A stretch of DNA of 64,000 bases. It comes from an uncultured Candidatus Saccharibacteria bacterium. Its GTDB lineage: Bacteria; Patescibacteriota; Minisyncoccia; Phycocordibacterales; GCA-2401445. The stretch spans positions 28,321 through 92,320 of the forward strand of contig CAYTAR010000001.1 of NCBI GenBank assembly GCA_964436015.1. Direction: 5' to 3'. A program made the position numbers and the translations under genes. Position 1 is the first letter of the stretch. Each line of letters opens with the position of its first letter. Below the pieces are notes generated by a model. It had not been told where the DNA came from and did not search any database. It worked only from the letters and a program-made list of their open reading frames with translations. Below are positions 2,895 through 63,117 of the stretch, in pieces.

Positions 2895-4853
2895 ATGAAA
2901 TTTTCCTTTGAGTGGTTACAGTCATATATCGGAGAATCTCTTCCTCATCCAGAAAAACTTGCGGAGGTTATTACTCAAAAACTCGCAGAGGTTGAATCAG
3001 TTACCGAGCTTTCAAATGGCGATTTTTGCTTTGATGTAAAAGTGTTACCTGACCGTGCGTGTTATTTACTATCTCACCGTGGTTTAGCATATGAAATTGC
3101 AGCTATTACTGGATTGCCATATCGAGATAAGACTCTTGAATACGGAACATTTAATGAATCCCTTCCGGCACCAGACATCCTTGTTGATCAATTGAGTGAG
3201 TTGGCACGATATTCTCTCGTACGAATTGACGGATTATCCTCAGACACAACACCGCCGTGGATGAAGCAACGGTTACTTGCGGTTGGTCAAAAATCAATTC
3301 ATCCGATTGTTGATGCGATAAACTATATACTTTTTGATATTGGTCAACCGTTGCATGCTTTTGATGCCGACCTAGTCTCAGGGGTAGTCCACGTAAGGTA
3401 TGCAAAACCCGGTGAGTCATTTACAACCCTTGATGGAAAAGAAATTCCACTTACAGTAACAAACGTAGTGATAGCAGATGATTCCGGCATACTCGCGCTT
3501 GCTGGCATAAAGGGTGGAAACCGGGCTGGGGTTAGTAGTACAACGACACGTATCCTTCTTGAGTCAGCTTCATTTAATGCTTCTTATGTGAGGCGCGCTT
3601 CAGGTTCGGTTGGCATTCAAACTGATGCTTCAAAACGTTTTGAGAATAACGTAACGAGCGCATTGGTAATGGTAGGAATGAAGCTCGCTATACAATTATT
3701 GAGAGATATTGCAGGAACTTCACAGACCGAGGTGAGTAAAGCTTCTTCAGTTGTTACTAATCAAGAAAATCGACTTCCTGTAGAATTAAGTCTTTCAAAG
3801 TTGCAAAGTGCGCTAGGTGTGTCAATTGATTCTTCTCAAATTGAACGTTACTTAACTCAACTTCGCTTTGCATATGAAAAAACAGTAGATGGGTATAGTA
3901 TCACTCCGCCTGTGTTTAGAAATGACATTGTAATTCCTGAGGATGTAATAGAGGAAATTGCTCGATTGTACGGATTTGATGAAATCCCTATTGAAGATCT
4001 TGATCTTTCTACAGTAAAAAATAATTCTTCTACACTTTTTGAGCTCATCTCTAGCATGAAATCCTTTTTCATTGAGAGGGGCTACTTAGAGCATTACGGC
4101 AGGGTTCTTATTGGGACAGGGGATATAGCTGTATTGAAGTCATACGCAGAAGATAAAAAATACTTAAGAAATTCACTTTCCCCGGGAATAGTGGCTGTAC
4201 TTGAGCAGAATATTCAACATACTTTATTTGATACTGATAGTGTTGCAATGTTTGAGATAGGCACTGTTTTTAAAAGGGATTCTGAAGAGATAAGGTGCAT
4301 TATTGCTGTTGGACAAAAAACACACAAGAAAAATTCAACTCAAAAAGACATTGAAACCATACTAGATGTTCTGATTGAAGAATATGGAATTTCCGTTACT
4401 CGTAGTGTTTTGCTCGATCATTTAAAATCAACAATTGTTTCTACTCAAACAATTACGTATGTTGAGTTTTCTCTTGCTGATTTAGAAGCGCATGTTTCAA
4501 AAATCCCTTCATCAGACATACTTACTACTTCGCATACTATTACCGAGTACTACACACCGTTCTCTGTGTATCCGAGAATAATTCGCGATGTTGCACTTTT
4601 TACACCACCTGATGTAGATCCTGCGGTAGTTGCGGAACAAATAAGGAAGTCTGCAGGAGAGTATTGCACGGAAGGCCCTGCTCTTTTTGATGTCTATCAG
4701 AAACGTAATGCGCATGGTGATATTGAACAGCAATCCCTCGCTTTTAGGATGGCTTTCCAGTCTACTAGTCGCACACTAACAGATGAGGAAGTTGAAGTGT
4801 TTATGGCTTCTGTGTATCAAAATTTGACGGCAAATGGGTATACAATTAGGTAG
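2895..4853 (+). CDS. pheT: Phenylalanine--tRNA ligase beta subunit (compact, 652 aa)
   Basis: B3/B4 and B5 domain similarity, C-terminal FDVYQ...AFR anticodon-binding-like region; pheS-pheT synteny. Confidence 0.9.
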   Translation: MKFSFEWLQSYIGESLPHPEKLAEVITQKLAEVESVTELSNGDFCFDVKVLPDRACYLLSHRGLAYEIAAITGLPYRDKTLEYGTFNESLPAPDILVDQLSELARYSLVRIDGLSSDTTPPWMKQRLLAVGQKSIHPIVDAINYILFDIGQPLHAFDADLVSGVVHVRYAKPGESFTTLDGKEIPLTVTNVVIADDSGILALAGIKGGNRAGVSSTTTRILLESASFNASYVRRASGSVGIQTDASKRFENNVTSALVMVGMKLAIQLLRDIAGTSQTEVSKASSVVTNQENRLPVELSLSKLQSALGVSIDSSQIERYLTQLRFAYEKTVDGYSITPPVFRNDIVIPEDVIEEIARLYGFDEIPIEDLDLSTVKNNSSTLFELISSMKSFFIERGYLEHYGRVLIGTGDIAVLKSYAEDKKYLRNSLSPGIVAVLEQNIQHTLFDTDSVAMFEIGTVFKRDSEEIRCIIAVGQKTHKKNSTQKDIETILDVLIEEYGISVTRSVLLDHLKSTIVSTQTITYVEFSLADLEAHVSKIPSSDILTTSHTITEYYTPFSVYPRIIRDVALFTPPDVDPAVVAEQIRKSAGEYCTEGPALFDVYQKRNAHGDIEQQSLAFRMAFQSTSRTLTDEEVEVFMASVYQNLTANGYTIR

Positions 4854-4928
4854 CTTGCCAGTGTAGTATTTATTCTCAATTTTTGCTATACTATGCGAAT
4901 ATTTGACACATTGTGTTGAAATTATTGT

Positions 4929-15638: not shown

Positions 15639-15914
15639 ATGACAGTACGAATGCGACATACCCGTTCACATACGGCAAACCGAAGAAGCCACCATGCGCT
15701 TTCTGGAACTCGAATTTCACTTGAAAACGGCGTTCCTCATCAGCGACATCGTGCGAGTGCGGTTACCGGTATGTATCGTGGGAAAAAAGTTATTGATGTT
15801 GATAAAAAAATCAACAAGCGAATGGCAAAGCAAAAACAGCACGCAGAAACTGATCCTGCACATTCACACGACGAGGCTTCAGGAGAAGTAAAAACTCTTC
15901 CAGCAGGTAAGTAA
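15639..15914 (+). CDS. rpmF: 50S ribosomal protein L32 (Cys-less variant with C-terminal basic extension, 91 aa)
   Basis: N-terminus MTVRMRHTRSHTANRRSHHAL matches L32 (MAV..R.S.S...RRSHHAL); canonical CxxC pairs absent. Confidence 0.75.
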   Translation: MTVRMRHTRSHTANRRSHHALSGTRISLENGVPHQRHRASAVTGMYRGKKVIDVDKKINKRMAKQKQHAETDPAHSHDEASGEVKTLPAGK

Positions 15915-15935: not shown

Positions 15936-15975
15936 ACGCGAAGTTGTCCTCTGGATAACTTCGCGTTTTTGCTGT
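15936..15975 (+). terminator. Rho-independent terminator after rpmF
   Basis: acgcgaagttgtcctctggataacttcgcgtttttg: 10-bp stem acgcgaagtt/aacttcgcgt plus T-run. Confidence 0.7.
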
Positions 15976-15997: not shown

Positions 15998-16912
15998 TTG
16001 AGAAATATGGCAAATCGGCACCTTTCACGTTCAATTGTTCTTCAGACCCTCTTTGAGTGGGATTTTAATAACTCTCCTAAATCTAATTTTAGCTCAATGG
16101 TTAAGCGTAACATTGAGGAGTTTGCTCCAGGCCTCTCAGACACCTCGTTTATCAATACGCTTATTGATAGTATTGTTCAAAAGAAACCCGATTTGGATTT
16201 AATAATTCAAAAAGCTGCGCCCGAGTGGCCTATTGATAAGATATCAATAGTTGATAGAAATATTCTTAGAATTGGTTTATATGAACTTCTTTTTTCAGAC
16301 AGAAAGGAAGTTCCGGCAAAAGTAGCTATTAACGAATCTGTTGAACTAGCTAAGGCTTTTGGAGGAGAAAATAGTAGTAAGTTTGTTAATGGTGTTCTTG
16401 GTGCAGTGTACAAAGAAATCGGTGAACCGGGCAAGGATGAGGTAAGTAAAAAGAAGCAAAAGAAGAGTATTCCAGATATTCCTTACGAAGAAATGCCTAT
16501 TGAAAAACTAGGGGGTGCGGTTGTGTATTCAAAACATGAGGGAGAAATATATCTCGCACTCATTCATGACATCTTTGGCCACTGGACTCTTTCTAAAGGT
16601 CACTACAAAGAGGGAGAGGATGATGCATCAGGAACTGCTCGGGTAGTGTTAGAGGAAATGGGGTTAGGTGGTTTGGTGCTTAAAGATGAGCTTGGAAAAA
16701 ACGAGTACATTGCAAAAAATCCAGAAAAGGGAAAGATACGAAAACAGGTAGTATATCACTTGGCAGAAGTTCCGTATGCGCCAGTTGTTCTTGGAAAAAA
16801 ACAAGGATTAGATGATGCACGATGGTTTAAATTAACTGAAATACTTGACCTTAATTTTTATGACGATATACTGCCACTTATAACCAAAGCAGTTGGTATA
16901 TTAACAGCATAA
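15998..16912 (+). CDS. nusB: NusB (N-terminal ~150 aa) fused to a C-terminal NUDIX hydrolase domain
   Basis: NusB-like helical N-domain (RSIVLQTLFEWDF...DRNILRIGLYELLF..PAKVAINESVELAKAFGGENSSKFVNGVLG); C-domain carries Nudix box GHYKEGEDDASGTARVVLEEMGL (Gx5Ex7RxUxEExGU, with V at the RE position). Confidence 0.75.
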   Translation: MRNMANRHLSRSIVLQTLFEWDFNNSPKSNFSSMVKRNIEEFAPGLSDTSFINTLIDSIVQKKPDLDLIIQKAAPEWPIDKISIVDRNILRIGLYELLFSDRKEVPAKVAINESVELAKAFGGENSSKFVNGVLGAVYKEIGEPGKDEVSKKKQKKSIPDIPYEEMPIEKLGGAVVYSKHEGEIYLALIHDIFGHWTLSKGHYKEGEDDASGTARVVLEEMGLGGLVLKDELGKNEYIAKNPEKGKIRKQVVYHLAEVPYAPVVLGKKQGLDDARWFKLTEILDLNFYDDILPLITKAVGILTA

Positions 16913-16928: not shown

Positions 16929-17666
16929 ATGGAGGGTGAAGGTATTCACCATCGATCTATCGTTCATAGTCACTCTATGAATTTTAAATCTTTTGAAGAA
17001 CGACTCGGGTTCGTTTTTACTAACCCAAAGTTGCTTGAGCAGGCTTTTACTCACCGTTCGTACTTAAACGAGAATAGAAACTTTAATGCACCGCACAATG
17101 AACGGTTAGAGTTTTTGGGTGATGCAGTTCTAGAGCTTGTTGTTACTGATTACTTGTACAAGGAGTTTCCTACGGATAATGAAGGGGTGTTGACTGCATA
17201 CCGCTCAGCGCTTGTTAACGCACAACTACTAGCTGAAGTCGCGCTACAGTTTGGAATGAATGATCATTTGTTGCTATCTAAGGGAGAAGCAAAAGATACC
17301 GGGCGAGCACGTCAGTATATTCTTGCAAATACTTTTGAATCTGTTACAGGCGCGATTTATTTAGATCAGGGATATGATCGGGCAAAAGATTTTATTTTGA
17401 AAAGTGTCATCCCGCAACTTCCACGAATTCTCAAAGAGCGACTCTGGCAGGATGCAAAAAGTTACTTTCAAGAAAAAGCTCAGGAGGTGCACGGTCAAAC
17501 CCCTGCGTATGTTCTTATTGGTGAATCTGGACCAGATCATGATAAATGTTTTACCGTCGCAGTAAAAATTGGGAATGATCAAATTGCGTCTGGACAGGGA
17601 AAAAGTAAGCAAGAAGCTGAACAAGACGCCGCACGAGTTGGCCTCAAGGTTAAGCAGTGGCTGTAG
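16929..17666 (+). CDS. rnc: Ribonuclease III (alternative start at 16977, MNFKSFEERLG)
   Basis: RNase III signature ERLEFLGDAVLELVVTDYLY, C-terminal dsRBD (GPDHDKCFTVAVKIGNDQIASGQGKSKQEAEQDAA). Confidence 0.9.
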   Translation: MEGEGIHHRSIVHSHSMNFKSFEERLGFVFTNPKLLEQAFTHRSYLNENRNFNAPHNERLEFLGDAVLELVVTDYLYKEFPTDNEGVLTAYRSALVNAQLLAEVALQFGMNDHLLLSKGEAKDTGRARQYILANTFESVTGAIYLDQGYDRAKDFILKSVIPQLPRILKERLWQDAKSYFQEKAQEVHGQTPAYVLIGESGPDHDKCFTVAVKIGNDQIASGQGKSKQEAEQDAARVGLKVKQWL

Positions 17667-17714: not shown

Positions 17715-19979
17715 ATGTATTTAAAATCCCTTGAGTTAAGTGGATTTAAATCCTTTGCAAAAAAGGAGTCCCTTTCTTTTACTGAGTCGGTTACCGCTAT
17801 TGTTGGTCCAAATGGCTCGGGTAAATCAAATACCGCAGAGGCCTTTCGTTTTGTGCTGGGTGAGCAGTCTATTAAGTCTATGCGAGGAAAAAGAGGAGAG
17901 GATTTAATTTGGAGTGGTTCTAAACTGGTTCCTAAAGGAAATAGAGCAAGTGTAAAGGTGGTATTTGATAATGCGAGCCGATTGCTTTCAATTGACCACG
18001 ATGAGGTTTCTTTTGAACGTGTTGTTCACCGAGACGGGGTGAATGAATATTTTATCAATGGATCACCGGTTCGTCTGAAAGATATTTCTGAACTACTTGC
18101 TCATGCAAATATTGGCTCTTCTGGGCATCATATTATCTCGCAAGGAGAGGCCGACAGAATTCTTTCTGTTCAACCAAAGGAGAGAAGGGAAATGATTGAG
18201 GACGCACTTGGTCTTAAGGTGTACCAGTACAAGCGAATTGAAAGCGAAAAGAAGCTTTTAAAAACAAGAGAAAATATTCAATCAGTTCAATCTCTTAGGC
18301 GTGAGATTGCTCCACATATAAAGTTTCTTAAAAAACAGATGGAGAGAATTGAGCGGGTTGCAAAAATGCGAGAAGAGCTTGTGGGGGCATATGCTGAGTA
18401 TCTTAAACGAGAATCAGTGTATTTGTCGTTTGAAAAGAATGCGATTGCACAGAGTCGTGATCCGCTCAAATCTGAACGCTCAATACTTGAGGATCGCATT
18501 ACTCAGACAAAACAACTTATTGAAAAGGACAACCACTCATCTCATGAGTCTGAACAATTGGTTGTAATAGAAACTAAACTCCGAGAGTTGCGTCAGGAAA
18601 AGGAGGTCTACGTTAAGACGATAGGACGCGTAGAAGGTGTAATTGGAGCACTTACGCGAGAGCATGAGCGGAGGATTAAAGAACATGAGTCGAGTGGGGG
18701 AGTCGTTCCGTTTGAAGAGGTTCGTGAGTTTACTGCCTCTCTCCACTTGATAGTTGATGGGGGCTTGGGTGAGACTGACATTGGTAATGTTAAGCGTGCG
18801 CTCGAATCAGTGAAGCATGCAATTTCCACTTTTTTTAAACAACATGAGTGTAGTGCTCATGCGCGCGATATACAGGAATCATTTGAACATGCACGTTCTG
18901 CAGCTGAAGCTGAACGAGCTCATGCTGAAAAAAAACTTGCAGAACTTACTACCACAGAACAAAATCTACTTGCGGAACTTGAATCAGTGAGGCATTCAAT
19001 TGTTAGAACAGAACACGATAGTAGGGACGCTGAACGTTCACTGTTTGAGTCAATGGGTCGCCTGAATGAAATTGCACTCCAATTGAGTGCGCTTTCAAAT
19101 CGAGAGCACATGTACGAGAAGGATGTAAGTGAATTTACTCGTGAATGTGAGGAAGGTGTAGTTTTGGTTGGGCGTTCAATTAAAAACTATGAGCAATTTG
19201 AGGTCGATGTTAATTCTGTTACTGCTGAGGATCGGAGTATTCAACTTGAGCGTAGGAGAAATCTTGAAAAACTTAAAATAAGAATTGAGGATATGGGAGG
19301 TGGAGATTCTGAGGAGATTCAAAAGGAGTACACTGAGGCTGTAGAGCGTGATTCTTTTCTTGAAAAAGAAATTAGTGACCTTGAGCAATCAGCAGAGTCG
19401 CTCACGCAGTTAATTGCTGACTTGGTAGAGAAAATTGAAACGGAGTTTAAGTCAGGCGTGACAAAGATAAATACAGCATTTAATGATTTCTTTACACTCA
19501 TGTTTGGTGGTGGGAAGGCGGGGATCCATGTTGTTGCGCAGAAGAAGAGAGTTCGAAAAAAGAGTGAGATTGAAGAGGTTTTATTAACAGAAGATGATTC
19601 TGAAGAAGAAGAGAAGGATGCTGATGTGGGAATAGATGTTGATGTGTCACTACCACATAAACGAACTAAAGGGCTTATGATGCTCTCAGGTGGTGAACGA
19701 GCATTAACTTCGATTGCGCTTCTTTTCGCTATATCACAAGTAAATCCACCCCCCTTTATTATTCTTGATGAAACTGACGCTGCGCTTGATGAGGCAAACA
19801 GCAGAAAGTATGGAGATATGATTGAAAGTCTTGCGCTTCATTCTCAGCTTATTTTGATTACGCACAACAGGGAAACTATGTCACGCGCACAAGTGCTGTA
19901 TGGGGTAACTATGGGAGGGGATGGCGCCTCAAAGGTTCTTTCGGTACAGTTTGAAGAGGCGGTTGCTGTTGCAAAATAA
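17715..19979 (+). CDS. smc: SMC-family chromosome condensation ATPase (compact, 754 aa; shortened coiled coil/hinge)
   Basis: N-terminal MYLKSLELSGFKSFAKK...AIVGPNGSGKSN (Walker A), C-terminal LSGGERALTSIALLFAI (signature) and FIILDETDAALD (Walker B); scpA/scpB present downstream in window. Confidence 0.8.
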   Translation: MYLKSLELSGFKSFAKKESLSFTESVTAIVGPNGSGKSNTAEAFRFVLGEQSIKSMRGKRGEDLIWSGSKLVPKGNRASVKVVFDNASRLLSIDHDEVSFERVVHRDGVNEYFINGSPVRLKDISELLAHANIGSSGHHIISQGEADRILSVQPKERREMIEDALGLKVYQYKRIESEKKLLKTRENIQSVQSLRREIAPHIKFLKKQMERIERVAKMREELVGAYAEYLKRESVYLSFEKNAIAQSRDPLKSERSILEDRITQTKQLIEKDNHSSHESEQLVVIETKLRELRQEKEVYVKTIGRVEGVIGALTREHERRIKEHESSGGVVPFEEVREFTASLHLIVDGGLGETDIGNVKRALESVKHAISTFFKQHECSAHARDIQESFEHARSAAEAERAHAEKKLAELTTTEQNLLAELESVRHSIVRTEHDSRDAERSLFESMGRLNEIALQLSALSNREHMYEKDVSEFTRECEEGVVLVGRSIKNYEQFEVDVNSVTAEDRSIQLERRRNLEKLKIRIEDMGGGDSEEIQKEYTEAVERDSFLEKEISDLEQSAESLTQLIADLVEKIETEFKSGVTKINTAFNDFFTLMFGGGKAGIHVVAQKKRVRKKSEIEEVLLTEDDSEEEEKDADVGIDVDVSLPHKRTKGLMMLSGGERALTSIALLFAISQVNPPPFIILDETDAALDEANSRKYGDMIESLALHSQLILITHNRETMSRAQVLYGVTMGGDGASKVLSVQFEEAVAVAK

Positions 19980-48167: not shown

Positions 48168-49772
48168 ATGAATAGTTTTCTCAGCATTTTAATTTATTTT
48201 GTGTTAGTCACCAATGTTATATTGGGTGTTGTTATTCTTTCAAGAGGGATAAAAAATACACTTAATATACTATTCGGGATGCTTACATTTAGTGTATCTT
48301 TTTGGTGTATAAGTGTCATTGGTTTTTATTCACCTAATTTCCCACTTGAAACTAAATGGACGGCGTGGACACATCTGTTTGCATTACTAATAAGTTATAT
48401 TTTTTTCTTTTTCAGCACCCGTTTCCCCTCCAAGATGCGCATACGTAAATTAATTTACTTCATTGCCTTCATTCTATTTTTTGTAGTTGTTTATCTACTA
48501 TTTTACAGCAACATTATTGTAGGAAATACTATTGATTTTAAATATGAGGTCAACTTTGGTTACTACATCTACGCATTGATTATTTCTTTTTTCTTTTTAT
48601 CTGGCTACTATACATTTGCACTTCAGTATCGCAATCAGAGTGAACATGTAAAAAAGAATCAAATCAAATATATTTTTTTAGGCTCGTTTTTATCTTCTAT
48701 ACCAGCTATTATTACTAATCTTTTGCTTCCTGCTATAGGTATTTTTAACTATACGTGGCTTGGTCCAATATTTACAGTCTTTCTTGTGGGCTCTATCTTT
48801 ATAGCTATTTTTAGATTTCACCTCTTCAATATTAAAGTTATTATTACTGAAATAATTTCTATTTTCATAATTTCAGTTCTAACAATAGAGATGTTTTTAG
48901 CACAATCAGTTATTTCACTCCTAACAAAAACTTTTGTTTTGATGCTCTTTACTGTACTTTCTTATTTCCTTATAAGAAGTGTCTACAAAGAAGTTGAAGC
49001 AAAGGAGGAAAACTTTAAGCTTGCGGCTAATCTCTCTAAAGCAAATGCTAAACTCCGTGCGCTTGATAGGCAGAAATCAGAATTTCTTTCTATTGCGTCT
49101 CACCAAATACGAGGACCGCTCGCTTCTATCAAGGGTTACGCCTCGCTTATCTTAGAGGGGTCTTTTGGTAAGATTAATCCTAAAGCACGTGAAGCGGTTG
49201 AGCGTATCTTTAGTTCCAGTCACAACCTCGTCCTTGTGGTTAATGATTTCCTTGATGTGTCTCGAATTGATCAAGACAACATGAAGCTCACCCCGGTGTT
49301 GCTTGATTGGAGAAAGGTGGCTAAAGAAACTATTGATGAGCTCCAACCCTCAGTTGAGAAGCGTGGTCTTAAGATTAAGTTTTCAACTGACAAGAAGGTG
49401 TCCTACCCAATATATGCTGATATAGGTAAAGTAAAGCAAATAATTTCTAACCTTGTAGATAATGCTGTGAAATATACTCCAAAGGGAAGTATTGCAGTAT
49501 TCCTTGAAAAGAAAAAGGATGTATTTCGTCTTACCATTTCAGATACTGGTATTGGTATGAGTGAAGAAACAATTTCAGTATTGTTTGAAAAATTCAGTCG
49601 TGCAAAAGACGCTGGAAAAGTAAATATTATGGGCACCGGACTCGGTTTGTATGTCGTTAAGAAGCTTGCGATAATGCAAAAGGGTAAAGTGTGGGCAGAA
49701 TCAGATGGAGAAGGCAAGGGTTCTCGCTTTATAGTGGAATTTCCAATTCATACAGAAAAAAGTGCAACATAA
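48168..49772 (+). CDS. Sensor histidine kinase with 7-TM N-terminal sensor domain (orphan: no adjacent response regulator)
   Basis: HisKA H-box LSIASHQIRGPLASI; HATPase_c N-box DNAVKYT, G1 DTGIGM, G2 GTGLGLYVVKKL; start ATG immediately follows methyltransferase stop. Confidence 0.85.
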   Translation: MNSFLSILIYFVLVTNVILGVVILSRGIKNTLNILFGMLTFSVSFWCISVIGFYSPNFPLETKWTAWTHLFALLISYIFFFFSTRFPSKMRIRKLIYFIAFILFFVVVYLLFYSNIIVGNTIDFKYEVNFGYYIYALIISFFFLSGYYTFALQYRNQSEHVKKNQIKYIFLGSFLSSIPAIITNLLLPAIGIFNYTWLGPIFTVFLVGSIFIAIFRFHLFNIKVIITEIISIFIISVLTIEMFLAQSVISLLTKTFVLMLFTVLSYFLIRSVYKEVEAKEENFKLAANLSKANAKLRALDRQKSEFLSIASHQIRGPLASIKGYASLILEGSFGKINPKAREAVERIFSSSHNLVLVVNDFLDVSRIDQDNMKLTPVLLDWRKVAKETIDELQPSVEKRGLKIKFSTDKKVSYPIYADIGKVKQIISNLVDNAVKYTPKGSIAVFLEKKKDVFRLTISDTGIGMSEETISVLFEKFSRAKDAGKVNIMGTGLGLYVVKKLAIMQKGKVWAESDGEGKGSRFIVEFPIHTEKSAT

Positions 49773-50208
49773 TCATTTATCTCAAACTGAATATTCCTAT
49801 GGAGTTGTACCTTTCTTCAAAAACGAAGAAGGTAATATTGAAATACTTTTCGTGTGCCAGGTTGAAGGGAAATGGGGTTTTCCTAAGGGGCACTCTGAAG
49901 AAAATGAAGATCCGCTTATTACCGCACAACGTGAGTTTAGCGAGGAGACGGGAATAACTGATTTTGAATTGTTAGACCCATTTTTATTTACCGAAACATA
50001 CACTCATACGAAAGATGGCATTTCCAGAGTGAAGATAGTCGAATACGCTCCTGTGCTAGTACTATCAAAAGATACCGACATCCAAGAAGCTGAGATTGCT
50101 GAGATAGCGTGGGTTACTCTTTCTTCCACTCCAGCGTTTGAACTTACACCTGGAAGAGCGGAGGTGTATGTGCAGGCATGTAAATATGTCACCGAGAAGC
50201 ACCTTTAA
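49762..50208 (+). CDS. NUDIX hydrolase
   Basis: Nudix box GFPKGHSEENEDPLITAQREFSEETGI. Confidence 0.85.
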   Translation: MQHNHLSQTEYSYGVVPFFKNEEGNIEILFVCQVEGKWGFPKGHSEENEDPLITAQREFSEETGITDFELLDPFLFTETYTHTKDGISRVKIVEYAPVLVLSKDTDIQEAEIAEIAWVTLSSTPAFELTPGRAEVYVQACKYVTEKHL

Positions 50209-61936: not shown

Positions 61937-62389
61937 TTAGTAGTACTTTTCCCAACAAGGCTTTGATGCACCCCATGGTGATAGTCCTTGATGCTCGTAT
62001 AAGTATTTAGCGTATAGAATATTCCCTTGTGGTGAAAATATATCAATGCCCATCTCTAGTGCTTTCTCACCGTGGTAATACTCATTGATCTGCATTATTC
62101 CGATATCGCGAGAATCAATCTCACCTCTCAGAACTTCTCCATTACCATCGTAGTGTCGCATACCAGATTCACATCTAGCAACGGCAACCATGCTTGGGAT
62201 ATCTTTAAACTCTTCAAAGAGTACCTCTTTCGCCTGTTTTGCCATTGTCTCCTTTTGTGTTTTTTCAATCCGAATACGTTCTATATACGATGCTTCACTC
62301 ATACCCATCTGTTGGTTCAACACCTCAGTTGAGGGTGAGTAACCAAAGAAAAGCATTGTAATTACTGTAGCAAATGTTGTTATTGTCAT
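61937..62389 (-). CDS. Lysozyme-like / lytic transglycosylase (SLT) domain protein with N-terminal TM
   Basis: Catalytic-region pattern AVARCESGMRHY...DIGIMQINEYY (E-S ... G-hMQI of SLT family). Confidence 0.65.
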   Translation of the reverse strand: MTITTFATVITMLFFGYSPSTEVLNQQMGMSEASYIERIRIEKTQKETMAKQAKEVLFEEFKDIPSMVAVARCESGMRHYDGNGEVLRGEIDSRDIGIMQINEYYHGEKALEMGIDIFSPQGNILYAKYLYEHQGLSPWGASKPCWEKYY

Positions 62390-62534: not shown

Positions 62535-62846
62535 CTATTTTAGCGTAGATTCACTAACCACCCGAAGCAATGCCTCCCTATCGTCATCAGGAGCGACAGT
62601 ATTAACAAACTGGTGATTGCACTTTACACAAAGGAAGCGAATTCTTTCAATACTTCCCTTTCTTTCAATACAGATAGGCTTCATCAAGCCTTTGCAAAGG
62701 CAATTCCTATCTCCCGGATTAATATCAACGTGTTTACTGTACAGGCATGAAGGACAATGGTTTCTATACCCATTTCCACTCACGCTACAGCCACATGACT
62801 CACACGTAAAATCTTCAATATGCCTTTTAAATCGAGGAGTTTCCAT
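62535..62846 (-). CDS. RNHCP-domain zinc-ribbon protein (start chosen at METPRFKRH; ORF track extends to 62966)
   Basis: FTCESCGC...YRNHCPSC...CLCKG...CVKCNHQF Cys pattern with literal RNHCP motif. Confidence 0.55.
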   Translation of the reverse strand: METPRFKRHIEDFTCESCGCSVSGNGYRNHCPSCLYSKHVDINPGDRNCLCKGLMKPICIERKGSIERIRFLCVKCNHQFVNTVAPDDDREALLRVVSESTLK

Positions 62847-62871
62847 GTGTATATATTCACTGCACTGGAGA

Positions 62872-63117
62872 CTATGCGTGTGGTTTTCTTGAAAGCATAC
62901 TTCTATTCCCTGGATCGTTTGGCAAAATAAAGTACAAAACAATGTACGCGAGTCCAAATGGAACAAAACCGGTGCCTATAAGCAACACAATAAAGATTGC
63001 ACGCACAACTGTGGGGTCAACTCCGTAGTATGTAGCAATACCACCACATACTCCCAAGAACTTTTTATCAGTTGATGAAAGATACATTTTTTTCATAAAT
63101 CCATAATACCATACCAT
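62872..63117 (-). CDS. PspC-domain membrane protein (likely start MKKMYLSS at 63096)
   Basis: DKKFLGVCGGIATYYGVDPTVVRAIFIVL matches PspC domain; TM helix follows. Confidence 0.7.
   Translation of the reverse strand: MVWYYGFMKKMYLSSTDKKFLGVCGGIATYYGVDPTVVRAIFIVLLIGTGFVPFGLAYIVLYFILPNDPGNRSMLSRKPHA

What the first reader, a model, noticed from the sequence alone, without database searches (positions are those of the whole stretch)
15998..16912. NusB fused to a NUDIX hydrolase domain
The first ~150 aa form a normal NusB antitermination-factor domain. The C-terminal ~150 aa carry a Nudix box (GHYKEGEDDASGTARVVLEEMGL, fitting Gx5Ex7RxUxEExGU except V at the RE position) and an a/b Nudix-like layout. 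NusB acts on nascent rRNA leaders, so a covalently attached Nudix domain (RNA decapping or NAD/NDP-X hydrolysis) would be an unusual coupling of antitermination and 5'-end chemistry. A separate stand-alone Nudix gene exists at 49762-50208.
Basis: partly seen in the sequence, partly recalled or inferred. Interest (0 to 1): 0.6.

Follow-up and report, generated by a model that had tools for sequence, protein, structure and literature searches.

The report
NusB fused to a Nudix domain
The gene is a real fusion of the rRNA antitermination factor NusB with an Ap4A-hydrolase-type Nudix domain; it is the usual form of NusB across Parcubacteria, but here and in many relatives the Nudix domain lacks a key catalytic glutamate, so it probably binds a nucleotide or an RNA 5' end rather than cleaving it.

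Summary
One uninterrupted ORF (true start ATG 16007, stop 16912, 301 aa) encodes three parts:
- an orthodox NusB domain (TIGR01951, 122.5 bits against a cut-off of 88.35);
- a 17-22 residue Lys-rich linker predicted to be disordered;
- a Nudix-fold domain closest to NUDT2/CT771-type Ap4A hydrolases.

It is not a frameshift artefact. At least 594 species-representative genomes carry the same full-length fusion, as do all 240 listed homologues. These come from Kaiser-, Taylor-, Giovannoni- and Nomurabacteria and other Parcubacteria. RNase III (rnc) lay directly downstream in every locus examined.

The first Glu of REUXEE is Val here. Across fused proteins this site behaves like an unconstrained one, with at least 14 E/non-E switches in the window's own subfamily. 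The full Nudix signature survives in 5 of 36 divergent fused cluster representatives, against 22 of 24 stand-alone relatives (p = 2e-9). Residues that align with ligand-binding positions are invariant, and the domain is nearly as conserved as NusB.

My best reading is a NusB that carries a nucleotide- or 5'-end-recognition module, weakly catalytic or inactive in this genome, to the rRNA transcription and processing machinery. I found no paper describing the fusion. I rate it a new variant of a known kind, of moderate interest.

The parts
16007..16912 (+). nusB::nudix fusion gene (301 aa plus stop). The ORF is open from TTG 15998, but the conserved N-terminus MANRH fixes the start at ATG 16007.
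16007..16426 (+). NusB domain (residues 1-140), all-helical and orthodox.
   Evidence: Pfam PF01029 E=3e-34. TIGR01951 equivalog 122.5 bits against a cut-off of 88.35. PDB NusB sequence hits down to E=1.5e-18. Foldseek 3r2d_B TM 0.87, rmsd 2.0.
16427..16492 (+). Linker (residues 141-162): conserved junction motif GEPGK[DE], then a Lys/Arg-rich stretch. Predicted disordered; length held to 17-22 residues in the family.
   Evidence: pLDDT below 50 for residues 141-154. E137, G139, E140, P141, G142 and K143 invariant in 120 sequences and at least 105/120 in a second subfamily. Length and charge.
16493..16909 (+). Nudix-fold domain (residues 163-301) of the NUDT2/CT771 asymmetrical Ap4A hydrolase type.
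   Evidence: Pfam PF00293 above the gathering score. PDB sequence hits: CT771 E=2e-7, human NUDT2 E=2e-6, C. elegans Ap4A hydrolase, Thermus Ndx1. Foldseek TM 0.70-0.82 to Ap4A/Ap6A hydrolases.
16598..16666 (+). Nudix box G198-x5-E204-x7-R212-V213-V-L-E216-E217-M-G219-L. It lacks the canonical first Glu of REUXEE (Val213, codon 16643-16645).
   Evidence: Read directly from the sequence. Column statistics.
16929..17666 (+). rnc (RNase III), 16 nt downstream. It is the conserved downstream neighbour of the fusion.
   Evidence: Pfam Ribonucleas_3_3 E=1.5e-40 plus dsrm. rnc follows the fusion in 80/80 related loci and in the three most divergent loci examined; gene calls overlap the fusion's 3' end in L085 and L087.
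15639..15914 (+). rpmF (ribosomal protein L32), the conserved upstream neighbour.
   Evidence: Pfam L32p; synteny.
15937..15970 (+). Terminator-like hairpin between rpmF and the fusion gene: a 13-bp stem, a 3-nt loop, then TTTTT. It suggests nusB::nudix-rnc forms its own transcription unit or is attenuated.
   Evidence: RNA fold gives -33.2 kcal/mol, z = -7.5 against shuffles. The simple consensus scan did not list it.
49762..50208 (+). Separate stand-alone Nudix gene with a fully canonical box (G..E..REFSEETGI), also CT771/Ap4A-hydrolase-like.
   Evidence: Pfam E=1.9e-15. CT771 E=1e-15 with alignment. Only 4 homologues found in the large protein collection.

Best explanation
This is the clade-specific form of the transcription antitermination factor NusB used by Parcubacteria (Paceibacteria).

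Shown:
- An orthodox NusB domain is joined through a short, flexible, basic linker to a Nudix-fold domain descended from NUDT2/CT771-type Ap4A hydrolases. Experiments on human NUDT2, the best-studied enzyme of that type, also show it trimming 5'-triphosphate RNA.
- The gene sits directly upstream of RNase III in every locus examined.
- The Nudix domain as a whole is under strong purifying selection, with invariant residues at aligned ligand-contact positions.
- The catalytic Mg-binding Glu of the REUXEE box is Val in this genome and is evolutionarily unconstrained across the fused family.

Inferred:
- The NusB half docks on boxA RNA and ribosomal protein S10 in the rRNA antitermination complex, as NusB does elsewhere.
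- The tethered Nudix half acts mainly as a recognition module for a nucleoside-polyphosphate moiety. That moiety is either the (p)pp- or Np4-capped 5' terminal nucleotide of the nascent leader, or a free dinucleoside polyphosphate or alarmone. Hydrolysis is weak or absent in this protein.
- Holding the transcript's 5' end (or sensing a nucleotide) at the elongating complex would help couple rRNA transcription to RNase III processing.
- Lineages that keep the full box may still hydrolyse the ligand. The fusion probably began as an active enzyme, and catalysis then became dispensable.
For: - The fusion is real and clade-wide. 120/120 and 120/120 listed homologues carry both Pfam domains. At least 594 GTDB species representatives hold the full-length gene. 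Gene order rpmF-fusion-rnc holds in 80/80 loci and in divergent loci.
- NusB is orthodox, and it is the only NusB ORF in the 64-kb window.
- The Nudix fold and its Ap4A-hydrolase affinity are supported.
- The domain is under selection. Mean pairwise identity is 66% for Nudix against 74% for NusB. W193, K197, E217, Y234, K246, Y250 and W273 show 0 changes on the subfamily tree and are kept in 31-36 of 36 divergent fused representatives (K246 as Lys or Arg).
- The catalytic motif is relaxed only in fused proteins. The full G-E-R-E-E-E-G signature is found in 5/36 fused against 22/24 stand-alone 50%-identity cluster representatives (Fisher p = 2e-9). The RE-Glu is kept in 6/36 against 23/24. In the window's own subfamily site 213 shows 30 changes and at least 14 E/non-E switches.
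- No compensating acidic position was found.
- The missing Glu is essential in related enzymes. NUDT2 E58A is inactive on PPP-RNA (residue identity). NUDT9 'RIL' is inactive, and the equivalent nvNUDT9-H double mutant keeps about 1% of kcat with KM within twofold of wild type.
- NUDT2 binds and processes RNA 5'-triphosphate ends.
Against: - No ligand, activity or complex has been measured, so every functional step is inference.
- In the two large subfamilies the rest of the box (G198, E204, R212, E217, G219) is well kept. The full box survives in 33% and 59% of members, so catalysis may be the selected function in many lineages and only reduced here.
- Some Nudix enzymes work with atypical boxes or bases outside the box (my own knowledge, not tested here).
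- The Nudix domain is acidic (pI about 5.1), which does not favour extensive RNA-backbone contact.
- The 36 divergent representatives weight rare or outlying clusters equally with big ones, and sequences are phylogenetically non-independent.
- Adjacency to rnc could simply be inherited operon order.
Confidence: 0.45

Rival explanations
1. Active enzyme. The Nudix domain is a working RppH/NUDT2-like pyrophosphohydrolase or Np4A/NAD decapping enzyme. NusB delivers it to nascent rRNA leaders, where it converts the 5' end to a monophosphate and so licenses 5'-end-dependent RNases alongside RNase III.
For: - The closest solved relatives are active Ap4A hydrolases.
- NUDT2 trims PPP-RNA.
- E204, R212, E216, E217 and G219 are retained in the window protein.
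- The full canonical box is present in 40/120 and 71/120 close homologues.
- The rnc neighbour is conserved.
Against: - The window protein has Val at the Mg-binding RE glutamate. The same substitution class inactivates NUDT2 (E58A) and NUDT9 (RIL).
- The site flips freely in the family.
- The whole box decays in divergent fused lineages but not in stand-alone relatives.
- The RppH family model scores far below its cut-off (14.5 against 118 bits).
- A canonical stand-alone Nudix of the same type exists in this genome.
Confidence: 0.25
2. Pure scaffold. The Nudix fold has been recruited as a protein-protein interaction subunit of the antitermination/processing complex. This would resemble the enzyme-fold protein SuhB in the E. 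coli rRNA antitermination complex, with no nucleotide ligand involved.
For: - The catalytic motif is degenerate while the fold is strongly conserved.
- The surface is acidic.
- There is a conserved linear motif GEPGK in the disordered junction.
- Non-enzymatic Nudix domains acting in protein interaction are documented.
Against: The most conserved residues align with phosphate-binding and base-stacking positions of C. elegans Ap4A hydrolase: K197~K36, K246~K83, Y234~Y76, W193~W32. The alignment is; the residue roles are from my own knowledge of that structure. E217 is also nearly invariant. This pattern points to a retained ligand pocket.
Confidence: 0.15
3. Co-expression only. The domain is an ordinary housekeeping Ap4A/NDP-X hydrolase that became fused to NusB by loss of a stop codon. 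The two halves work independently.
For: - The flexible linker and low pTM (0.49) show no fixed inter-domain contact.
- Stand-alone homologues of about 140-150 aa exist.
Against: - The fusion has been kept over at least 594 species with a tightly constrained linker length.
- The relaxation of the catalytic box is specific to fused copies. That is the opposite of what a housekeeping enzyme would show.
Confidence: 0.08
4. Artefact. A sequencing or assembly frameshift merged two adjacent genes.
For: None found.
Against: The same continuous frame occurs in hundreds of independent assemblies from many studies. It includes a relative that uses a different genetic code.
Confidence: 0.01

Closest known systems
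NusB (E. coli / Aquifex / Thermotoga antitermination factor; TIGR01951, PF01029)
   Same: The N-terminal 140 residues match the equivalog model above its cut-off. They match solved NusB structures in sequence and fold. The canonical KVAINE..ELAK.FG.E.S.KFVNGVL core is present.
   Different: Classical NusB is a single domain of about 130-150 aa. This protein carries an extra linker and a 140-aa Nudix domain, plus a clade-specific GEPGK junction motif.
Asymmetrical Ap4A hydrolases of the NUDT2 / Chlamydia CT771 / C. elegans type (also Thermus Ndx1, Aquifex aq_158)
   Same: These are the best sequence and structure matches for the C-terminal half. The shared motifs are HWT.(S/P)KG before the box, NEY(I/V)A, and K..V.Y.LA. 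NUDT2 also acts on 5'-PPP RNA.
   Different: - Those enzymes are stand-alone and have a complete REUXEE box.
- Here the first Glu (NUDT2 E58) is Val, and it is variable across the fused family.
RsmB/Sun 16S rRNA m5C methyltransferase
   Same: It is a precedent for a NusB-fold RNA-binding domain placed N-terminal to an enzyme-fold domain acting on rRNA. The window's NusB domain hits the N-terminal region of RsmB models.
   Different: RsmB's NusB-like domain is a paralogue, not the antitermination factor. Its partner domain is a SAM methyltransferase, not a Nudix domain. The RsmB models score far below their cut-offs here.
Non-catalytic Nudix domains: vertebrate TRPM2 NUDT9-H, NrtR regulators
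   Same: These are Nudix folds fused to another functional module that keep ligand binding but have lost the Mg-binding Glu (TRPM2 has RILRQE). The NrtR Nudix domain is the top Foldseek hit by E-value.
   Different: They belong to a different Nudix subfamily (ADP-ribose type) with different partner domains. In the NusB fusions the loss is patchy across lineages rather than fixed.
SuhB in the E. coli rRNA antitermination complex (own knowledge; rrnTAC structures 6TQN/6TQO appear among the NusB hits)
   Same: It is an enzyme-fold protein serving as an accessory subunit of the NusB-containing rRNA antitermination complex.
   Different: SuhB is a separate polypeptide of the inositol monophosphatase fold. 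No evidence was obtained here that the Nudix domain contacts RNA polymerase or the Nus factors.

Membership tests
NusB (TIGR01951 / PF01029) | Sequence match to the equivalog model above its curated cut-off | tested here: met
   TIGR01951 122.5 bits against a cut-off of 88.35. Pfam 118.7 bits against 23.1.
NusB (TIGR01951 / PF01029) | All-helical NusB fold | tested here: met
   The AF2 model has helices 2-138 at high pLDDT. Foldseek 3r2d_B TM 0.87, rmsd 2.0 A.
NusB (TIGR01951 / PF01029) | Binds boxA RNA together with S10/NusE and promotes rRNA antitermination | not testable with these tools
   There is no rRNA operon or boxA in the window, and no binding assay is possible.
NusB (TIGR01951 / PF01029) | Sole NusB orthologue of the genome | tested here: inconclusive
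   It is the only NusB-like ORF in the 64-kb window. Whole genomes could not be scanned.
Nudix hydrolase superfamily (PF00293) | Nudix alpha/beta/alpha fold and Pfam match above the gathering score | tested here: met
   28.0 bits against 21.1 for the full protein, and 30.1 bits for the isolated C-terminal half. AF2 plus Foldseek probability 1.00.
Nudix hydrolase superfamily (PF00293) | Complete Nudix box GX5EX7REUXEEXGU | tested here: not met
   The window has R-V in place of R-E (residue 213). The full signature is present in only 40/120 members of its own subfamily.
Nudix hydrolase superfamily (PF00293) | Mg/Mn-dependent pyrophosphohydrolase activity | not testable with these tools
   This needs an enzyme assay. 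Analogous substitutions inactivate NUDT2 and NUDT9.
NUDT2/CT771-type asymmetrical Ap4A hydrolase | Closest sequence and structural neighbours are members of this group | tested here: met
   CT771 E=2e-7 and NUDT2 E=2e-6. TM 0.70-0.82 to Ap4A/Ap6A hydrolases.
NUDT2/CT771-type asymmetrical Ap4A hydrolase | Conserved phosphate-binding Lys residues and base-stacking Tyr | tested here: met
   By alignment to C. elegans Ap4A hydrolase: K197~K36, K246~K83, Y234~Y76. All are invariant in the subfamily. The residue roles come from my own knowledge of that structure.
NUDT2/CT771-type asymmetrical Ap4A hydrolase | Catalytic glutamate equivalent to human E58 | tested here: not met
   Val213 aligns with E58. 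The PDB E58A mutant sequence shows R-A at this position.
RppH (RNA pyrophosphohydrolase, NF001936) | Match to the RppH equivalog model above its cut-off | tested here: not met
   14.5 bits against a cut-off of 118, E=0.025. No RppH chain appears among the PDB sequence hits.
Non-catalytic (ligand-binding) Nudix domains | Degenerate catalytic box with a conserved fold and pocket | tested here: met
   The loss is lineage-patchy rather than fixed.
Non-catalytic (ligand-binding) Nudix domains | Binds its ligand without turnover | not testable with these tools
   Needs binding and activity assays.

The most novel reading that the evidence does not exclude
The Nudix module is a built-in 5'-end handler of the Parcubacteria rRNA antitermination complex. 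It captures the (p)pp- or Np4-capped 5' nucleotide of the nascent leader and, in lineages with an intact box, hydrolyses it. The 5' end then stays tethered to the elongating polymerase until the complementary 3' flank is made and the adjacent-gene product RNase III can cut. This would be a previously undescribed physical coupling of antitermination, 5'-end chemistry and rRNA processing.
Probability: 0.2. Interest if true: 0.8.

Novelty: new variant of a known kind. Interest (0 to 1): 0.5.

Why it matters
NusB is a universal bacterial factor with a very stable single-domain architecture. Here a whole major lineage of ultra-small, host-dependent bacteria has permanently attached a nucleotide-polyphosphate-recognising fold to it and kept the gene next to RNase III.

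If the module binds or processes the 5' end of nascent rRNA, or senses dinucleoside polyphosphates or alarmones, it would reveal a new input into rRNA antitermination. It would also show how streamlined genomes replace accessory factors.

The family is also a natural series of Nudix domains with and without the catalytic Glu. That makes it useful for studying how an enzyme turns into a binding module.

On the practical side, thousands of database entries labelled simply 'NusB' hide this second domain.

Tried and rejected
- Frameshift or assembly artefact. Rejected: the same frame occurs in at least 594 species representatives and in all 240 listed homologues.
- Second NusB or further Nudix genes in the window. 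A phmmer search against six-frame ORFs found only the fusion and the ORF at 49735-50205.
- Internal translation start at Met163 as a relic of the ancestral Nudix start codon. The start Met of 7/24 stand-alone homologues aligns with it, and it is 115/120 in the own subfamily. It is Leu in the Giovannonibacteria-type subfamily and mostly absent in divergent members. Dropped as a general feature.
- Compensatory acidic residue replacing the lost RE-Glu. No position shows a consistent gain.
- 'Division of labour' with the stand-alone canonical Nudix gene. It holds in this genome, but that gene has only 4 detectable homologues, so the argument cannot be generalised.
- Origin of the domain from an adjacent gene. 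The stand-alone relatives checked are not next to nusB. One lies among integrase, DNA-methylase and faint Phage_rep_O hits, the other next to a Zip transporter.
- Literature. Four searches for NusB with Nudix, Patescibacteria or CPR found nothing relevant. A large Nudix-clan review does not mention NusB.
- Consensus promoter scan. Uninformative, no more sites than in shuffles.
- My script for the fusion-to-rnc intergenic distance. It gave unreliable start-codon choices, so I did not use it.
- Exact look-up of the window protein's contig found nothing on record.
- Cluster look-up of divergent representatives returned no names.
Full report

Yes. The ORF listing and the raw sequence show one uninterrupted ORF at 15998..16912 on the + strand. 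An alignment of 120 homologues has M1-A2-N3-R4-H5 invariant, so translation almost certainly starts at ATG 16007. The product is 301 aa, and all residue numbers below count from that Met.

Pfam finds NusB at residues 7-136 (E=3e-34). It finds NUDIX at 183-284 (E=2.4e-6, 28 bits, above the 21.1-bit gathering score). The isolated C-terminal half scores 30.1 bits. NCBIfam's NusB equivalog TIGR01951 scores 122.5 bits against a cut-off of 88.35.

The quoted motif GHYKEGEDDASGTARVVLEEMGL is residues 198-220.

AlphaFold2, run with the 120-sequence alignment, gives mean pLDDT 86.6. The model has a helical domain (2-138), a linker with pLDDT below 50 (141-154) and an alpha/beta domain (165-300). pTM is 0.49, so there is no fixed inter-domain orientation. 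Foldseek against the PDB matches the C-terminal half to Ap4A/Ap6A hydrolases: Aquifex 3i7u TM 0.82, Thermus Ndx1 0.80, Chlamydia CT771 0.72-0.74, C. elegans and human NUDT2 about 0.65-0.70. It also matches the non-catalytic NrtR Nudix domain. The N-terminal half matches NusB 3r2d_B (TM 0.87, rmsd 2.0 A).

**2. Is it an artefact?**

No.
- The 120 best hits in a 5.8-billion-protein collection are all about 300 aa, 64-86% identical, and carry both Pfam domains. Where named, they are called 'transcription antitermination factor NusB' from Paceibacterota, Taylorbacteria, Kaiserbacteria or Patescibacteria.
594 confirmed loci encoded the full-length protein (query residues 1-~300). Record titles include Parcubacteria, Paceibacterota, Kaiser-, Taylor-, Lloyd-, Adler- and Nomurabacteria.
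- A second search seeded with a divergent member (28% identical in the Nudix half) returned another 120 of 120 two-domain proteins. These came from Giovannoni-, Niyogi-, Vogel- and Tagabacteria and Paceibacter.

The fusion is therefore the normal NusB of this clade. It has been in databases since the 2015 groundwater genomes ('N utilization substance protein B-like protein').

**3. Context**

The window is 39.7% GC and looks like a Paceibacterota MAG. The local gene order is dnaE(-), rnhB, rpmF, nusB::nudix, rnc, a short smc, rnr(-), rpsP, trmD.

rnc follows the fusion in all 80 fetched loci, and rpmF precedes it in most. The same holds in the most divergent loci examined. In two of them the rnc gene call overlaps the 3' end of the fusion, which suggests translational coupling.

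A strong terminator-like hairpin (15937-15965, followed by T5; z = -7.5) separates rpmF from the fusion gene. No rRNA gene lies in the window, so boxA could not be examined.

**4. What kind of Nudix domain is it?**

By sequence, the closest solved proteins are Chlamydia CT771 (E=2e-7), human NUDT2 (2e-6), C. elegans Ap4A hydrolase and Thermus Ndx1. The shared motifs are HWT-x2-KG before the box, NEY(I/V)A, and K-x2-V-x-Y-x-LA. The RppH model scores only 14.5 bits against a cut-off of 118.

The PDB entries for the human 'E58A' mutant (4ick/4ijx) read R-A where the wild type reads R-E. Human E58 is therefore the residue equivalent to Val213.
- NUDT2 E58A is inactive on triphosphorylated RNA, while wild-type NUDT2 trims PPP-RNA like bacterial RppH (PMC8616924).
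- In NUDT9 the same Glu coordinates the catalytic Mg2+, and RILGEE mutants are inactive. The equivalent nvNUDT9-H double mutant keeps about 1% of kcat with KM within twofold of wild type. Human TRPM2's inactive, ligand-sensing NUDT9-H domain reads RILRQE (PMC6461439).

**5. Evolutionary test of catalysis**

*Own subfamily (120 sequences).*
- Site 213 is E44, K25, V24, A8, I7, S7, with other residues in the remaining five. It ranks 15th of 139 sites by entropy. On a neighbour-joining tree it shows 30 parsimony changes and at least 14 E/non-E switches.
- By contrast W193, K197, E217, Y234, K246, Y250 and W273 show no change at all.
- The seven-residue signature G-E-R-E-E-E-G is intact in 40 of 120.

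*Giovannonibacteria-type sample.* The signature is intact in 71 of 120, and the RE-Glu is kept in 87 of 120.

*Exhaustive search of 50%-identity cluster representatives.* I used the Nudix half as query against 1.84 billion representatives. It gave 879 hits at E<=1e-3. I sorted them with local HMMs into 36 full-length fused proteins (28-52% identical) and 24 genuine stand-alone Nudix proteins (29-36% identical, about 133-442 aa, most around 140-150).

| Feature | Fused representatives (36) | Stand-alone representatives (24) |
|---|---|---|
| Full G-E-R-E-E-E-G signature | 5 | 22 (Fisher p = 2e-9) |
| RE-Glu | 6 | 23 |
| E216 | 19 | 24 |
| R212 | 23 | 24 |
| W193 | 36 | 23 |
| K197 | 34 | 24 |
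| Y234 | 32 (+3 Phe) | 14 (+7 Phe) |
| Y250 | 35 | 14 |
| W273 | 35 | 23 |

Sources for the table are.

Two stand-alone representatives were confirmed as independent genes on contigs. No compensating acidic position appears when the RE-Glu is lost. Within the subfamily the Nudix half is almost as conserved as the NusB half (66% against 74% mean pairwise identity).

In summary, the fold and the positions that align with ligand contacts are under strong selection. The catalytic motif is relaxed specifically in NusB-fused copies. By the alignment the contact positions are K197~K36, K246~K83, Y234~Y76 and W193~W32 of C. elegans Ap4A hydrolase. The roles of those residues come from my own knowledge.

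**6. Mechanism**

Shown:
- the architecture, and an orthodox NusB domain;
- a flexible basic linker of constrained length (17-22 residues);
- a conserved junction motif Y[KR]E[ILM]GEPGK;
- a NUDT2-type Nudix fold with an incomplete box;
- the conserved rnc neighbour.

Inferred:
- NusB docks on boxA and S10 as it does elsewhere.
- The tethered Nudix domain recognises a nucleoside-polyphosphate moiety. This is either the 5' terminal (p)pp- or Np4-nucleotide of the nascent transcript, or a free Ap4A-like molecule.
- In this genome the domain binds that moiety rather than efficiently cleaving it.

I give this composite reading about 0.45. The main rival is an active RppH/NUDT2-like enzyme delivered to the leader, at about 0.25. 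It stays alive because five of the six other signature residues (G198, E204, R212, E217, G219) are well kept in the big subfamilies, and many orthologues have a perfect box. A ligand-free scaffold of the SuhB kind gets about 0.15. A merely co-expressed housekeeping hydrolase gets about 0.08. The acidic net charge of the domain (pI about 5.1) argues against extensive RNA-backbone binding, but not against 5'-nucleotide capture.

**7. Comparison with known systems, and novelty**

The N-terminal half is a member of the NusB family. The C-terminal half is a member of the Nudix fold superfamily and is nearest to NUDT2/CT771 Ap4A hydrolases. However, it fails the defining complete-box and E58 criteria, so I do not file it as a bona fide Ap4A hydrolase or as RppH.

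Conceptual precedents:
- RsmB, a NusB-like domain fused to an rRNA-modifying enzyme;
- vertebrate TRPM2 and NrtR, Nudix folds turned into ligand sensors;
- SuhB in the E. coli rRNA antitermination complex (own knowledge).

Four literature searches and a comprehensive Nudix-clan review gave no description of a NusB-Nudix fusion. Sequence databases hold thousands of copies under the name 'NusB'. I rate it a new variant of a known kind, interest 0.5. That is notable for transcription and CPR biologists and experimentally tractable, but it is a fusion of two familiar folds whose function is still inferred.

**8. The second Nudix gene**

The gene at 49762-50208 has a perfect box (REFSEETGI) and matches CT771 at E=1e-15. 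It lies between a histidine kinase gene and a Trp/Tyr-tRNA synthetase gene. It offers a canonical enzyme of the same subfamily in this genome. Only four homologues were detectable, so this pairing cannot be generalised to the clade.

Noticed in passing
L087 (GCA_054047225.1, JBPLFY010000016.1), whole 8.9-kb locus; fusion gene at 4001-4900: A divergent relative (25% GC) carrying the same fusion plus rnc has 7 in-frame TGA codons in 8 genes, no TGG codons, and only TAA/TAG stops. The 3 alignable TGAs sit opposite invariant Trp residues (W193 and W273 of the Nudix domain, and one in RNase III). It therefore appears to read UGA as Trp (code 4-like), not Gly as in Gracilibacteria. Its neighbours (MurJ, MreB) suggest it has a cell wall.
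   Followed up: partly
window 17715-19979 (+): The SMC homologue is only 754 aa. Pfam SMC_N spans residues 2-738, and there is no SMC hinge-domain hit at E<=1e-5. The homologue in L085 is 722 aa. This looks like a much shortened, possibly hinge-less SMC in this clade.
   Followed up: no
window 16415-16435 (residues 137-143) and the same position in homologues: The junction motif Y[KR]E[ILM]GEPGK[DE] is invariant in 120 sequences and at least 105/120 in a second subfamily. Part of it lies in the segment AlphaFold predicts as disordered (pLDDT below 50 from residue 141). It may be a conserved linear docking or hinge motif of unknown partner.
   Followed up: partly
window 15937-15970 (+): A strong terminator-like hairpin (13-bp stem, UCU loop, T5 tail; z = -7.5) lies between rpmF and the fusion gene. 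The simple consensus terminator scan missed it.
   Followed up: partly
window 15639-15914 (+): Ribosomal protein L32 is 91 aa, and only residues 6-53 match the 56-position Pfam profile. It carries a charged C-terminal extension of about 35 residues.
   Followed up: no
window 49762-50208 (+): A stand-alone CT771-like Nudix gene with a perfect Nudix box lies between a histidine kinase gene and a Trp/Tyr-tRNA synthetase gene. Only 4 homologues (best 54% identical) were found in the 5.8-billion-protein collection, so it is either fast-evolving or recently acquired.
   Followed up: partly
L081 3001-3453: The closest confirmed stand-alone homologue of the fused Nudix domain (P0153, 36% identical, canonical box) lies among genes with integrase (weak), DNA methylase and Phage_rep_O (faint) Pfam hits. 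That is a mobile-element or phage-like context.
   Followed up: no
L001-L080 record titles: Many loci whose fusion protein is 62-69% identical to the window's are titled 'uncultured Candidatus Saccharibacteria bacterium'. Others of equal similarity are titled Kaiser-, Taylor- or Paceibacterota. The Saccharibacteria label in those TPA assemblies looks like a generic or erroneous assignment.
   Followed up: no
window 62538-62966 (-): A small ORF with an RNHCP domain (Pfam E=1.3e-23). Next to it, at 61940-62389 (-), is an ORF with a weak lysozyme-like domain hit that falls below the gathering score.
   Followed up: no
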